Made by a program: the position numbers and the translations under genes
In this document: piece by piece, positions 18,631-51,360 of the stretch
Numbering within the stretch: the stretch's first letter is position 1
Layout of the letters: each line of letters begins with the position of its first letter
Notes under the pieces: generated by a model
What the model saw: only the letters and a program-made list of their open reading frames with translations
Databases searched by the model: none
What the model was told of the DNA's origin: nothing
Assembly: GCA_964016885.1 (NCBI GenBank)
Contig: OZ024740.1
Location: 163,556,001 to 163,620,000 of the forward strand
Length of the DNA stretch: 64,000 nucleotides
Source: Eledone cirrhosa
Taxonomy: Eukaryota
Direction: 5' to 3'

Positions 18631-19903
18631 TGCAGAGTTAACTCAGTTATAGGTACCCAATGACCAGATAGTGGTTAAGTTGGACGACGGATTAAGTCAG
18701 CTACTCAAGAGCTCAGAATGCGTATAGTCGGAACAAATGCCGTAGTGTATATTGTTCGATATTCTAACTATACGACCCGTTGGTCGAATTATACCATGAA
18801 TTCCAATGACTAGCTTTCTTCAACGAGTTGCACTGATTCTGCCTAAGGATGTTATATTACGGCTACACGTGTCTGTAAAATACTTCATCCACTTATGCAT
18901 TAGTTCACGAATCGAGCGTTCAATTGATCGAAGTGAATTTTCATCGTAGAAACCAACGGAGGATCTATCATTATCGTATGGGAAATCAATAGTGAGAAAC
19001 AATTTAATTAAATACTAGCTTATGTCTAGTTTCTATACCATATGGAATTACTTTTATTCAATCGTAGTTTGTCAGATTTTATTTAGTTGAACCAATGATC
19101 AACCAATGTTTAAAGGGGTGAAGATGATCGAAATAAAAAGAGATATGATTGATTAGTGATTAGTTTCTATTTATAAACATTTAGAAATGTATTTTTTTTT
19201 ATATTTTGCGACTAATTGATACCTACTTTTTCAATATAGTTAATATTATTTACATAAAGTATAGATTTTTTGTTTGTAGTTCTTCATCTTATTTTTGTTT
19301 TTTCTTGGTAAATCATTTTATTTTCTAATTGATATTTTTTCTTTCTAAAATCGATAATCCTAGTTTTAATTTCCTCACTGATTTACTGTTGACTCGTCCA
19401 TTATTGTTGATTTATAAGAATTATCAAATCATTCGGAATCGTCTTAGTTTTATATTGAAAACAAAAATATATACACTCTTAAAGGTTCTGCAAACAAGTC
19501 AATATGTCTGCTTTGTAGACTTTTTCCGGTTTAACAACCACCACCTAGTCATTGGGTGTCTTTGACGAAGCCCATTCTCTTGCAGTTGTTCGAACAAGGT
19601 GTCCGGTCAGGAGATAGTTGAACAGGCAGACAGCAGGCAGGTAATTATATATATATATATATATATATATATATATATATAACAATTAAGTTAAAGTGTA
19701 CATCTACATATGTATACGGAAGTACTAGTATGCATATAAATACACATATGTATACATATGTACATGTACCGAGCTTTTCACTAGACACTTTACAGTGAGT
19801 GTCCAGCTAGTCTGTATGTAAACACACAGACGAACCGGGTTTTAAAGTCATACGGGTTTTCAAGGAAACACACTTCCTCTATTCTCCAGAGAGCCAGACA
19901 GGA

Positions 19904-19946
19904 ATATTGTACTAGTTTCGATGTTATTACATCTCATCAGCAATAT
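19904..19946 (-). ncRNA. Type I hammerhead ribozyme
   Basis: Reverse complement reads ATATTG CTGATGA GATGT aata ACATC GAAA CTAG TA CAATAT. Confidence 0.9.
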
Positions 19947-20336
19947 ATACCTATCTTCTGGCTTCTCCGGAGAATTGTAAAAGCACATATCGTTATATGC
20001 TTTTTCTATGAAAATCAGTAGTGGGCAGACTAATTTGCATAGAACGTGAGTCATTGTACGCGCCGGTTCAGCGGAAACGATAAAAACAAATAACGAAACG
20101 AAATTAAATTTCGTTTCGCTTCTAACTCACTTTTGTATGACTGACGCTTAAACAATTAAGTTAAAGTGTACATCTACATATGTATACGGAAGTTTATTTT
20201 TATCGTTTCCGCTGAACCGGCGCGTACAATGACTCACGTTCTATGCAAATTAGTCTGCCCACTACTGATTTTCATAGAAAAAGCATATAACGATATGTGC
20301 TTTTACAATTCTCCGGAGAAGCCAGAAGATAGGTAT

Positions 20337-20379
20337 ATATTGCTGATGAGATGTAATAACATCGAAACTAGTACAATAT
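20337..20379 (+). ncRNA. Type I hammerhead ribozyme, predicted cleavage after GUA at 20373
   Basis: Stem I ATATTG/CAATAT, core CTGATGA 20343-20349, stem II GATGT/ACATC, GAAA 20364-20367, palindromic stem III ACTAGT. Confidence 0.92.
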
Positions 20380-20806
20380 TCCTGTCTGGCTCTCTGAAGA
20401 ATAGAGGAAGTGTGTTTCCTTGAAAACCCGTATGACTTTAAAACCCGGTTCGTCTGTGTGTTTACATACAGACTAGCTGGACACTCACTGTAAAGTGTCT
20501 AGTGAAAAGCTCGGTACATGTACATATGTATACATATGTGTATTTATATGCATACTAGTACTTCCGTATACATATGTAGATGTACACTTTAACTTAATTG
20601 TTTAAGCGTCAGTCATACAAAAGTGAGTTAGAAGCGAAACGAAATTTAATTTCGTTTCGTTATTTGTTTTTATCGTTTCCGCTGAACCGGCGCGTACAAT
20701 GACTCACGTTCTATGCAAATTAGTCTGCCCACTACTGATTTTCATAGAAAAAGCATATAACGATATGTGCTTTTACAATTCTCCGGAGAAGCCAGAAGAT
20801 AGGTAT

Positions 20807-20849
20807 ATATTGCTGATGAGATGTAATAACATCGAAACAAGTACAATAT
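20807..20849 (+). ncRNA. Type I hammerhead ribozyme with mutated stem III palindrome (ACAAGT)
   Basis: Same as 20337-20379 shifted by 470 bp, with one T>A at 20839. Confidence 0.85.
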
Positions 20850-21496
20850 TCCTGTCTGGCTCTCTGGTGAATAGAGGAAGTGTGTTTCCTTGAAAACCCG
20901 TATGACTTTAAAACCCGGTTCGTCTGTGTGTTTACATACAGACTAGCTGGACACTCACTGTAAAGTGTCTAGTGAAAAGCTCGGTACATGTACATATGTA
21001 TACATATGTGTATTTATATGCATACTAGTACTTCCGTATACATATGTAGATGTACACTTTAACTTAATTGTTTAAGCGTCAGTCATACAAAAGTGAGTTA
21101 GAAGCGAAACGAAATTTAATTTCGTTTCGTTATTTGTTTTTATATATATATATATATATATATATATATATATATAACAACTAGAAATTGATTAACATAT
21201 AAATAAACATATGAAACAATCACAGGGGATAACTTTTACAAGTGTGCAAGCACACATAGCTAGGTAGGTAACTAAATAAAGTTAACTAGAACTTCAAAAA
21301 TAGATACCTTATAATATGATTAATCTTCCCTGTATATATTCCATTAAAGAAATATATTTCACCAATTAATCGAATGGTAAACCACGGAGGCCTTTCTGGC
21401 ATGACACCCATAATTTTGATTTAGATTAAATTCACTTTGATTTATCTTAATTTTGTATATATATATATATATATATATATATATATATATATATAA

Positions 21497-48270: not shown

Positions 48271-48321
48271 TTTTATTATACATATTTCAGATGTACAACA
48301 GTACGTCCTCATCACACAAAA
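48271..48321 (-). ncRNA. Degenerate hammerhead-like motif
   Basis: TTTTGT gTGATGA G GACGTAC tgtt GTACATC T GAAA TATGTA TA ATAAAA. First core C is replaced by G. Confidence 0.5.
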
Positions 48322-49911
48322 TATAATGATACATGACATACCCTGAGATGTTAAATGGTTAAGATTTAATCAAGGTAGTGATTAACCTAAGAGAAAGTTT
48401 AACATTTATACCCTAATAATGAGAAAATGCGAAAACGCAATAAATTCAATAGAGAATGTGTGAGTAAGAAAAACGTTGCTTAATGTAACAGTTATAGATA
48501 TTTTAAAATGTAAGATACTACAATTTATCAGGGAAAGCGGTCAATGAGAGCCGCTGAGATAATATATATAGAGAGGGGAGATTTTCCGAAAGTTAAACGG
48601 TTAAGCTTGAAAATATTTAATTTATGCTATTTTAGGGTGAAGAATCAAGATTTTAGGTTTGTTTGTTTTTTTAAATTGCAGGTTATTTATTAGTTTTGTA
48701 AATTCAATAAGTGTTTTAACATTTCTAAACTTCGGAATTTTATGAGGATAACTTTTAAAGGATTTAGCTGTTTAGAAATGTTAAAACACTTATTGAATTT
48801 ACAAAACTAATAAGTAATCTGCAATTTTTTTTTTTTTTTAAACATACATACACAGAAACAGACATACAGACATACATACATACATACACACACACACATA
48901 TATATATGTGTGTGTGTGTGTGTGTGTGTGTGTGTGTGTGTGTGTGTGTGTGTGTGTGTGTGTGTGTGTGTGTGTGTGTGTATATATGTATGTATGTACA
49001 TATGTATGTATTCGTGAGTGTTATATCGAATAATACTAATGTTCGATTCATTTGCAAGTAAACAGCCTCATTATGCTATGTTTTTAAATTTGGCAACCGG
49101 ATTAACTTTCTCTTTAAAGGTGTTCAACACAGCACATTGATAAACTAATTAACTGCTTAACGAACACAAACACAAGGATATGGTCCGAACGTGGAAGAGC
49201 CGAACTCCCACTGTCATCGCCTCCATCTCTCTCGCCCTCCCCATCTCTCCGTATGGTGAGCAGATGGGGTCCCACGTGTTGGCCTCCCCCACAGTCCCGG
49301 CGAACAGAATGGAGAAGGCATTTTCCCGGAGATGATTCTCTAAAGTCTACAGCGGCTGATTGGCCTAATTTGCATACCGAGCGATATTACAGCTGACTTT
49401 GGCGAAATTTAAAAACAAAACCTGAATTTGATTTTTCGCTCTAACATAGTGGATACGTAAATGTATTCGTGAGTTTTATATCGAATAATGATGATATAAT
49501 CGATATAAAACTCACGAATACACTTACGTATCCGCTATATATATATATACATATATATGTATATATATATATATATATATATATATATATATATATATAT
49601 ATATATATATATATATATATATATATATATATATATATATATATATATATATATATATATATATATATATATATATATATATATATAACAATTAAGTTAA
49701 AAATGTACATCCACATATGTATACTGAAATACTAGTATGCATATGAATACACACACGTATACATATGTAGATGTACTAAGTCTTTCACTGGTCACTTTAC
49801 TGTGAGTGGCCAGCTATTCTGTATGTAAACACACAGACAAACCGGTTTTTAGAGTCATACTGGTTTTTGAGGAAACACCTTTCCTCTATTCTCCAGAAAG
49901 CCAGACAAGGA

Positions 49912-49954
49912 ATATTGAACTAGTTTCGTTGTTGTTACAACTCATCAGCAATAT
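49912..49954 (-). ncRNA. Type I hammerhead ribozyme
   Basis: Reverse complement reads ATATTG CTGATGA GTTGT aaca ACAAC GAAA CTAG TT CAATAT. Confidence 0.9.
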
Positions 49955-50307
49955 TTACCTATCTACCGGCCTTTCTGGAGAATCGTAAAAGCACATATCG
50001 TTATATGCTTTTTCTATGAAAATTAGTAGTGGGCAGACTAATTTGCATAGAGTGTGCATACTAGTATTTCAGTATACATATGTGGATGTACATTTTTAAC
50101 TTAATTGTTTAAGCGTCAGTCATACAAAAGTGAGTTACAAACGAAACGAAATTTAATTTCGTTTCGTTATTTGTTTTTATCGTCTCCGTTGAACCGGTAC
50201 GTACTCACACTCTATGCAAATTAGTCTGCCCACTACTAATTTTCATAGAAAAAGCATATAACGATATGTGCTTTTACGATTCTCCAGAAAGGCCGGTAGA
50301 TAGGTAA

Positions 50308-50350
50308 ATATTGCTGATGAGTTGTAACAACAACGAAACTAGTTCAATAT
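50308..50350 (+). ncRNA. Type I hammerhead ribozyme, predicted cleavage after GUU at 50344
   Basis: ATATTG CTGATGA GTTGT aaca ACAAC GAAA CTAG TT CAATAT. Confidence 0.9.
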
Positions 50351-51360
50351 TCCTTGTCTGGCTTTCTGGAGAATAGAGGAAAGGTGTTTCCTCAAAAACC
50401 AGTATGACTCTAAAAACCGGTTTGTCTGTGTGTTTACATACAGAATAGCTGGCCACTCACAGTAAAGTGACCAGTGAAAGACTTGGTACATCTACATATG
50501 TATACGTGTGTGTATTCATATGCATACTAGTATTTCAGTATACATATGTGGATATACATTTTTAACTTAATTGTTTAAGCGTCAGTCATACAAAAGTGAG
50601 TTACAAACGAAACGAAATTTAATTTCGTTTCGTTATTTGTTTATATATATATATATATATATATATATATATATATATATATATATATATATATATATAT
50701 ATATATATATATATATATATATATATATATATATATATATATATATATATATATATTAATACAATAACAGAGATAGCTTAACGCTAAACTCCGACTGGCA
50801 ACCATCTCACTCAACAAACATTAGGTTATATGTTAGTATAACCCAATTTATGTGTTTGGGGTGCTAACTATATGTATTTTGTGGAAAGCCAGTTGTATTA
50901 TTTTATGAGATATAATTAAAGTTAAAATATATCTCTCTTTCCAAACAATTGTTTCATTATAAGTTTTCTACAAATTGGGAGAATGTTTCCAGTTTATGTA
51001 GAAGCCTAACATATATTCATGTAAGAATATATTTAGGTGGGCACTTATAAATCTTCAGTGGAAGCCCATTAAACTTTGATATAAGAAAAAATTCTTACCG
51101 CAGTTAAAAATCGTGTCTGCTAAGCTGCTCCCTCACGCATCGAATGACCGCCAAATTTGAAATTCCAGCAGTTTTTTGACTGAGGAAGTTTCATAGCGTC
51201 ACGAAGCGGGAAGGGGAGACAACCACGATACACGAGAAAAGAAAAAAATAATATACACTCGGGTTAATTAGTTTTTTCATCGCAAAACTAATATATATAT
51301 ATATATATATATATATATATATATATATATATATATATATATATATATATATATATATAT

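What the first reader, a model, noticed from the sequence alone, without database searches (positions are those of the whole stretch)
19681..50642. Both hammerhead loci share the same outer breakpoints and a divergent inverted architecture in (TA)n
Seen: both insertions start (TA)n-AACAATTAAG (inverted arm) and end GTTATTTGTTT(TT)-(TA)n. The inner inversion junctions differ (20193/20197 with a short filler; 50055-50056 with TG microhomology). The ribozyme strand reads outward on both arms. Inference: two fixed TTGTTT(T)A priming sites on the RNA, each primed from one strand of a cut (TA)n target, with the two cDNAs joined internally. The GIY-YIG-bearing element at 61680-63205 has the same layout, pointing to a Penelope-like partner.
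Basis: partly seen in the sequence, partly recalled or inferred. Interest (0 to 1): 0.72.

Follow-up and report, generated by a model that had tools for sequence, protein, structure and literature searches.

The report
Retrozyme inserted by Penelope twin priming
These two inserts are copies of an abundant non-coding repeat with a predicted self-cutting RNA fold, and its mirror-image insertions always pair one long end with one short end, which likely means a Penelope-type jumping-gene enzyme copies the RNA from both sides of one staggered DNA cut.

Summary
Both loci are independent insertions of a 466-470-bp non-coding repeat with a type I hammerhead motif (a non-LTR retrozyme; 1,407 exact core matches for one subfamily). 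Across the genome the arm ends fall at two sites about 70 nt apart (A and B; 57 of 61 arm ends in an unbiased sample). All 55 divergent pairs with both ends on-site are A+B, none A+A or B+B; ten more have an off-site end. Inner junctions are scattered, with microhomology or filler. Readable targets show 11-13-nt duplications. This is the known Penelope-like (PLE) footprint (inverted copy, one-sided tail, TSD), here on a retrozyme. The best model is twin priming from both 3' overhangs of a staggered cut. Two corrections: the B site is a 7-nt window, not a fixed TTGTTT(T)A motif; and the element at 61680-63205 (Neptune-type) is a poor partner: one end site, rarely two-armed, no homology. A Hydra-clade PLE in this genome shows the same offset pairing (12 of 12), though without sequence homology. 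The scan noted this pattern before, here and in other genomes. No RNA or long-read test was possible.

The parts
19646..19680 (.). (TA)n target, left of locus A
19681..20193 (-). Locus A inverted arm, 513 nt; outer end at site B (unit position u400), inner end at u358 of the preceding unit
19900..19947 (-). Type I hammerhead motif on the inverted arm of locus A (core begins 19940)
20193..20197 (.). Locus A inner head-to-head junction (short filler, or 1-nt overlap with a substitution)
20193..21141 (+). Locus A forward arm, two 470-bp units, outer end at site A
20336..20383 (+). Type I hammerhead motif, inner unit (core 20343; 4-bp helix II, palindromic minimal helix III)
20806..20853 (+). Type I hammerhead motif, outer unit (one private change in helix III)
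21063..21076 (+). 5-bp stem, 4-nt loop (u391-404); B-type ends fall in its loop and 3' strand
   Evidence: predicted fold
21073..21141 (+). Locus A tail, 69 nt, present on one arm only; holds a predicted 13-bp hairpin just before site A
21142..21176 (.). (TA)n target, right of locus A
49536..49686 (.). (TA)n target, left of locus B
49687..50056 (-). Locus B inverted arm, 370 nt, outer end at site B; hammerhead core begins 49948
50055..50056 (.). Locus B inner junction, 2-nt microhomology
50055..50642 (+). Locus B forward arm, 1.26 units of 466 bp, outer end at site A; hammerhead core 50314 with a two-sided change in helix II relative to locus A
50576..50642 (+). Locus B tail, 67 nt
50643..50756 (.). 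(TA)n target, right of locus B
61680..63205 (+). Locus C: 3' fragment of a Neptune-type PLE (broken GIY-YIG reading frame 61914-62590) with a short inverted arm; both arms end at the same base; not homologous to the retrozyme; unlikely partner
63502..64000 (+). Decayed remnant of a Hydra-type PLE (44% identity to the young Hydra-type protein P0001); led to the candidate partner clade

Best explanation
The two loci are independent insertions of a non-coding hammerhead repeat (a retrozyme) whose two back-to-back arms end at two different fixed sites, likely because a borrowed Penelope-like enzyme primes reverse transcription from both 3' ends of one staggered cut. Inferred steps: (1) the enzyme, probably a dimer, nicks both strands of AT-rich DNA about 12 nt apart, leaving 3' overhangs; (2) one overhang primes at site A and the other at site B, about 70 nt upstream, on uncleaved multimeric or circular RNA from one source; (3) both cDNAs stop at unrelated points and are joined head-to-head by end-joining with short microhomology or filler; (4) fill-in leaves the target duplication and a tail on one arm. 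The enzyme is most likely Hydra-clade (about 0.5), less likely the Neptune-type family of locus C (about 0.1), or an unsampled family.
For: Shown: two fixed ends, 57 of 61 arm ends in the unbiased sample; A+B in 21 of 25 unbiased divergent pairs and 55 of 65 overall, with no A+A or B+B and the rest having an off-site end; informative flank repeats at 14 of 55 loci against 1.2 for shuffled pairings, clear cases 11-13 nt; overlap of 2 nt or more at 23 of 34 non-filler junctions against 24% in simulated joins, and filler at 19 of 53 against 13%; arms of a locus closer to each other than to the median other locus in 48 of 48 scored; arms cross the predicted cleavage site in 44 and 47 of 55, with no pile-up of 5' ends there, 3 of 110; the same two-end layout in two diverged retrozyme families and in a Hydra-clade PLE, 12 of 12 divergent pairs, where the reading frame fixes the polarity. 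Literature: a purified PLE protein cleaves and extends both strands and starts at two internal RNA sites that bound the tail (PMC11167929); PLEs were proposed as retrozyme drivers (PMC7229834; bioRxiv 10.64898/2026.07.22.740005).
Against: No enzyme, RNA or intermediate was observed. PMC11167929 saw no difference in start site between the two strands, so the strict A/B division of labour has no in vitro support. No sequence homology links the retrozyme to the young Hydra-type family, and no hammerhead core was found in four copies of that family. The register test could not tell one RNA molecule from two, and A-arm 5' ends are not clearly enriched just past a B site (7 of 55, 4.2 expected). A TSD alone does not separate priming from integration of a pre-made double-stranded DNA. 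41 of 55 loci give no informative TSD, and a few flanks fit 12 nt only if a later mutation is allowed. The tail (67-73 nt) is longer than the 30-40 nt reported for PLEs.
Confidence: 0.65

Rival explanations
1. One end is made by priming and the other by cutting: the PLE endonuclease resolves a DNA intermediate (a head-to-head or tandem cDNA) at site B and joins it to the target, so the tail is a cleavage mark.
For: PMC8557442 ascribes the tail to EN-mediated resolution of the intermediate; PMC11167929 cites recognition of the tail by the Penelope endonuclease. It predicts fixed ends, A+B pairing and a TSD as well. B ends sit in an AT-rich palindromic hairpin, a plausible nuclease site.
Against: B ends spread over 7 nt, as expected for priming with a 1-2-base overlap; PMC11167929 maps both tail boundaries to reverse-transcription starts; the model still needs a separate source for the random head-to-head junction.
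Confidence: 0.2
2. The inverted arm arises by self-priming or fold-back of the cDNA or of an antisense template (model of PMC3846280).
For: The unit is highly self-complementary (z -9.6); a few junctions lie in palindromic stems (L142, L170, L174).
Against: Fold-back predicts matching 5' positions on both arms; only 4 of 55 lie within 20 nt, 4.8 expected by chance. It does not explain why the second arm always ends at the other site.
Confidence: 0.07
3. The driver is the Neptune-type family represented at 61680-63205.
For: Locus C is two-armed and divergent, has a hammerhead, and the family is abundant (5,359 and 2,170 candidates).
Against: Both arms of locus C end at one base; copies end at a single site followed by mixed (CA)/(TA) runs; 1 of 58 other regions shows an inverted terminal arm within about 1.5 kb; no homology to the unit. 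Caveat: inverted arms of long copies can lie outside the flanks held.
Confidence: 0.1
4. Segmental duplication of one locus, or assembly fold-back artefacts.
For: No contig or read spanning the locus A junction was seen; one fetched pair (L153/L154) is a true local duplicate.
Against: Units 88% identical, flanks unrelated, junctions different; arms carry mismatches and a 70-nt offset; unique flanks with TSDs at other loci; the pattern recurs in dozens of loci and several families.
Confidence: 0.01

Closest known systems
Metazoan non-LTR retrozymes (Cervera and de la Pena 2020, PMC7229834, passages read; Li et al. 2026, bioRxiv 10.64898/2026.07.22.740005, parts 1-3 of 5 read)
   Same: Non-coding tandem units of a few hundred bp, low GC (36-37%), one type I hammerhead per unit with a minimal palindromic helix III, dimers to long arrays, PLEs in the same genome.
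   Different: The parts read do not describe head-to-head arms, two fixed ends or their pairing ('inverted' occurs 0 times in PMC7229834). Expression, self-cleavage and circles are untested here. No pLTR homologue was found.
Insertion footprint of endonuclease-bearing Penelope-like elements (Craig et al. 2021, PMC8557442, passages and section 11; Arkhipova et al. 2013, PMC3846280, passages)
   Same: Partial tandems, inverted 5'-truncated copy, tail on one side, TSD, bias for (TA)n.
   Different: No reading frame; tail 67-73 nt rather than 30-40; TSD 11-13 nt rather than the 8-10 listed for A. vaga; the tail is strictly one-sided in two-armed copies rather than 'optional'.
Poseidon PAc in vitro reaction (Frangieh et al. 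2024, PMC11167929, parts 1-2 of 4 read)
   Same: Two internal start sites bounding the tail, cleavage and extension of both target strands, AT-rich target, ribozyme cleavage not needed, start in a stem-loop.
   Different: No strand-specific use of the two sites was seen there and the later steps were left open; here the products show strict A+B pairing, a stagger length and an end-joined inner junction.
Hydra-clade PLEs (PMC8557442, section 11)
   Same: (TA)n insertion; in this genome the same offset two-end pairing (12 of 12) and a short AU-rich hairpin at the inner end site.
   Different: Tail about 95-100 nt, no detectable homology to the retrozyme, no hammerhead core found in four copies.
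L1 twin priming (recalled, not read here)
   Same: Both target strands prime on the RNA and the cDNAs are joined by microhomology.
   Different: In L1 the second site is variable and the arms do not overlap; here both sites are fixed and the arms copy the same sequence.

Membership tests
Metazoan non-LTR retrozyme | Type I hammerhead motif in each tandem unit | tested here: met
   Core, helix I, 4-bp helix II with a two-sided change between subfamilies, palindromic helix III, GUC in the family majority. Rfam gave no match at gathering score and the minimum-energy fold does not form helix III, as expected for minimal dimer-type motifs (PMC4209133, part 1 of 4 read).
Metazoan non-LTR retrozyme | Non-coding unit of a few hundred bp, GC below 50% | tested here: met
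   466-470 bp, GC 36-37%, longest stop-free frame 88 codons
Metazoan non-LTR retrozyme | Dispersed tandem copies, dimers to multimers | tested here: met
   1,407 exact core matches; arms from under one unit to 14.7 units and one array over 28 kb
Metazoan non-LTR retrozyme | Transcribed, self-cleaving, accumulates as circular RNA | not testable with these tools
   No RNA data were available to lay
Metazoan non-LTR retrozyme | Derived from a PLE pLTR (Li et al. 2026) | tested here: inconclusive
   No homology to the Neptune-type or young Hydra-type families sampled; only weak matches (E 0.009-0.1) to a hammerhead-like motif in old Hydra-type remnants
PLE insertion footprint | Inverted 5'-truncated copy joined head-to-head | tested here: met
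   25 divergent pairs and 11 single arms in the unbiased sample
PLE insertion footprint | Tail on one end | tested here: met
   67-73 nt, on one arm in all 55 on-site pairs; longer than the published 30-40 nt
PLE insertion footprint | Target site duplication | tested here: met
   14 of 55 informative, 1.2 expected; clear cases 11-13 nt; not readable at the two window loci
PLE insertion footprint | Microsatellite or AT-rich target | tested here: met
   (TA)n on both sides in 17 of 21, other AT-rich DNA in 4
Autonomous PLE | Single ORF with RT and GIY-YIG endonuclease | tested here: not met
   No ORF in the unit; the element is non-autonomous
Hydra-clade PLE (for candidate partner P0001) | RWK-like motif, DKT, CxCX5C linker, no CCHH, CxxC and CxH near the end, (TA)n insertion | tested here: met
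   RWR, DKT, CxCX5C, CxxC and CxH read in P0001 against the diagnostics; assigned by motifs, no tree built
Hydra-clade PLE (for candidate partner P0001) | Canonical hammerhead in the pLTR | tested here: not met
   No core on either strand in four copies
Neptune-clade PLE (for locus C) | C-terminal GIY-YIG with CX2-5CxxC linker and CCHH, hammerhead in the 3' repeat | tested here: met
   Motifs in P0002, 87% identical to the locus C frame; weak RVT_1 and GIY-YIG hits in a longer copy; hammerhead core at 61802; no tree built

The most novel reading that the evidence does not exclude
Penelope-like elements integrate by concerted, asymmetric twin priming: an enzyme dimer opens the target with a 12-nt 3' stagger and places one active site on each of two fixed RNA landmarks of a single, probably circular, RNA, so that the inverted copy, the one-sided tail and the TSD come from one reaction; small ribozyme RNAs hijack Hydra-clade enzymes by mimicking the shape of these landmarks without sharing their sequence.
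Probability: 0.4. Interest if true: 0.75.

Novelty: new member of a known kind. Interest (0 to 1): 0.5.

Why it matters
How PLEs make their inverted repeats, tails and microsatellite bias is named as an open problem in PMC8557442, and which enzyme moves animal retrozymes has rested on co-occurrence and pLTR similarity. Here the insertion products themselves carry the PLE footprint and give numbers to test: two start sites about 70 nt apart, strict A+B pairing, a stagger of about 12 nt and end-joined inner junctions. A 470-nt non-coding RNA and a young Hydra-type protein from the same genome make a small in vitro system. The element class and the layout are both known, so the surprise is moderate.

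Tried and rejected
Rfam scan: no match. DNA search with the locus B core returned nothing, with the tool's warning about common words; the locus B subfamily was therefore not sampled separately, although its variants dominate the laid contigs and reads. No RNA holder listed. Contigs and reads laid on 19800-20490: no piece spans the locus A junction; loose ends from site A into (TA)n appear in 12 contigs of X2; opposite-strand joints in X16 have only 21 letters on the short side and were not counted. Register test for one RNA molecule: inconclusive. Pile-up of 5' ends at the ribozyme cleavage site: none. Fold-back: rejected. Empty site for locus B among 19 paralogues of its left flank: none. 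Pfam on locus C frames and on the Hydra-type protein: no useful hit. Homology between the unit and PLE families by BLAST and by a profile: none beyond nested retrozyme copies and weak hammerhead-region matches. A shared bulged hairpin in retrozyme and Hydra tails (lead from earlier notes): not confirmed; folds differ, and the B-site hairpin is invariant among retrozymes, so it shows no covariation. The first search was biased to ends at site A by its query phase, so the end counts rest on the core-selected sample. Rows dropped before counts: L154 (duplicate of L153), L170 and L142 from junction counts (overlaps inflated by palindromes), L137 and the long array L176/177/182 (ends cut off), L283 from the Hydra count (its two ends abut, convergent). 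A genome-wide search for other elements carrying the tail was not run, which leaves a tail-sharing partner open. Literature searches found no paper stating strict pairing or twin priming for PLEs or retrozymes; subscription papers and all supplements (notably file S1 of PMC8557442 with Hydra consensus sequences) were not seen.
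Full report
Observation. The window lies in a 3.0-Gb, microsatellite-rich genome. Locus A (19681-21141) is an inverted arm of 513 nt followed by two 470-bp units; locus B (49687-50642) is an inverted arm of 370 nt followed by 1.26 units of 466 bp. Each arm pair differs at 2 positions. The units are 88% identical and the flanks are unrelated. Below, u-numbers count along the unit 20673-21142.

The unit. It is non-coding (longest stop-free frame 88 codons), 36-37% GC, strongly folded (z -9.6), and holds one type I hammerhead motif whose strand reads outward on both arms. 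Helix II shows a two-sided change between loci A and B, and most copies carry a GUC cleavage triplet. Rfam gave no match. This fits the metazoan non-LTR retrozymes (PMC7229834, passages). An exact 37-nt core pattern matches 1,407 times, control 0; this covers only the subfamily of locus A, and the locus B variants make up most of the laid contigs and reads.

Outer ends. The first search favoured ends at u470 by its query phase, so I sampled again by the ribozyme core, which lies over 200 nt from either end: the first 100 matches along contig C1, 35 loci, of which 34 regions had both ends in hand. After dropping one duplicate, 57 of 61 arm 3' ends lie at site A (u465-2) or site B (u395-404), windows covering about 4% of the unit. 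Of 25 divergent pairs, 21 are A+B and 4 have one off-site end; 11 arms stand alone (6 A, 5 B). Adding 44 regions from other, end-biased searches gives 55 A+B pairs, 10 pairs with an off-site end, and no A+A or B+B. Independent choice of sites would give A+B half the time. B ends fall in the loop and 3' strand of a predicted 5-bp hairpin in three related families; about 6-9% of positions lie in such loops, so this is only suggestive. Site A follows a predicted 13-bp hairpin by about 10 nt.

Target. Both flanks are (TA)n in 17 of 21 unbiased pairs; 4 lie in other AT-rich DNA. Those four, and several impure microsatellites, show direct repeats across the insertion: 14 of 55 loci have an informative exact repeat against a mean of 1.2 (maximum 5) for shuffled flank pairings, and 10 against 0.5 when a G or C is required. 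The clear cases (L151, L156, L168, L171, L175, L013) are 11-13 nt, up to 15 with ambiguous edge bases; some longer matches are periodic and fix no length. If both outer ends are primed by target 3' ends, a duplication implies 3' overhangs (inference). The two window loci are in pure (TA)n and cannot be read.

Inner junction. 5' ends are spread over the unit, with 3 of 110 at the predicted cleavage site, and most arms run across that site (44 A arms and 47 B arms of 55), so the template was likely uncleaved or circular. Of 53 junctions, 23 overlap by 2 nt or more, 8 by 1, 3 are blunt and 19 have filler. The same pipeline on 400 simulated joins gives 24% overlaps of 2 or more among non-filler joins (p about 1e-7 for 23 of 34) and 13% filler. 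The longer fillers partly repeat nearby sequence, which recalls polymerase theta end-joining (recalled, untested). The two arms' 5' positions are unrelated (4 of 55 within 20 nt, 4.8 expected), against fold-back. The arms of a locus differ by 0-2.2% (best register) against medians of 1.7-11% to a subsample of other loci, in 48 of 48 scored: one source sequence per event, but one RNA or two could not be told apart.

Related families. A profile found two diverged relatives of about 424 and 465 bp with the same hammerhead type, homologous 3' regions and the same two-end layout.

Partner. Locus C is a Neptune-type fragment by its motifs. Its two arms end at the same base, its relatives end at one site followed by mixed (CA)/(TA) runs, only 1 of 58 other regions has an inverted terminal arm within about 1.5 kb, and it shares no sequence with the unit. 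A decayed remnant at 63502-64000 led to a very abundant family (30,708 candidates) with Hydra-clade motifs and a 702-codon frame in one copy. In 45 regions it shows two fixed ends about 95-100 nt apart, both into (TA)n, paired in 12 of 12 divergent copies. There the reading frame shows that the fixed ends are 3' ends. No homology to the retrozyme and no hammerhead core were found in that family, so the link is by footprint only, and an unsampled family could be the driver.

Reads. No long reads or RNA were available. Contigs and reads laid on 19800-20490 do not span the locus A junction. Artefact is excluded by the family-wide pattern, unique flanks and TSDs rather than by reads.

Comparison with what is known. 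The inverted copy, one-sided tail, TSD and (TA)n bias are described for PLEs (PMC8557442, passages and section 11; PMC3846280, passages; PMC8969392, passages). A purified PLE protein nicks and extends both strands and starts at two internal sites that bound the tail, with no strand preference seen (PMC11167929, parts 1-2 of 4). Retrozymes were proposed to ride on PLEs (PMC7229834; bioRxiv 10.64898/2026.07.22.740005, parts 1-3 of 5), and non-autonomous PLE pairs are known in algae (PMC8557442; PMC9977147, passages). Eight searches found no paper stating strict pairing or twin priming for these elements; subscription papers and supplements were not seen. Earlier notes of this scan report the same pattern in this and other genomes; I reached the pairing, TSD lead and Hydra reading before opening them, and they are not counted as support.

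Verdict. A real, young, abundant retrozyme family carrying the PLE footprint: a new member of a known kind. The strict A+B pairing, the roughly 12-nt duplication and the end-joined junction together make twin priming from a staggered cut the best model (0.65), with endonuclease resolution of a DNA intermediate the main rival (0.2). Interest 0.5.

Noticed in passing
window 63345-64000 and L213 2660-2695; L299 1515, L300 1504: An old Hydra-type remnant carries a hammerhead-like motif resembling the retrozyme's, on the strand opposite its reading frame; two related old copies show a core in the same orientation. Matches are weak (E 0.009-0.1). Unexplained.
   Followed up: partly
L275-L288, L293, L294: The young Hydra-type family shows no canonical hammerhead core in four copies checked, although PMC8557442 calls hammerheads universal in Hydra.
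   Followed up: partly
L031 2261-3615: Chimera of two retrozyme families joined at an 8-nt shared stretch, ending in an A-type end on both sides: a template switch between RNAs or a later deletion.
   Followed up: no
L179 1860-1937, 3325-3433, 5852-5962: Mini insertions of about 55 bp that hold only the two ends A and B joined head-to-head.
   Followed up: no
L143 1309-8460; L176, L177, L182: Very long single arms: 14.7 units opposite a 244-bp arm, and an array over 28 kb starting at a B end; rolling-circle copying or later tandem expansion.
   Followed up: no
L161 2144-4883: Four-armed locus with B ends outside, joined at the palindromic tail hairpin; probably recombination between two insertions.
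   Followed up: no
window 36439-37293: Element in (AG)n with symmetric 372-nt inverted arms around a 111-nt spacer and an extended hammerhead-like core reading outward on both arms.
   Followed up: no
window 27807, 46983 (-), 58381-58724: Further hammerhead-like cores of other repeat families, and a second, single-armed 3' end of the Neptune-type family.
   Followed up: no
window 49330-49535: Left flank of locus B is the hairpin-ended terminus of another old repeat family (1,416 candidates); such elements nest in each other's (TA)n flanks.
   Followed up: partly
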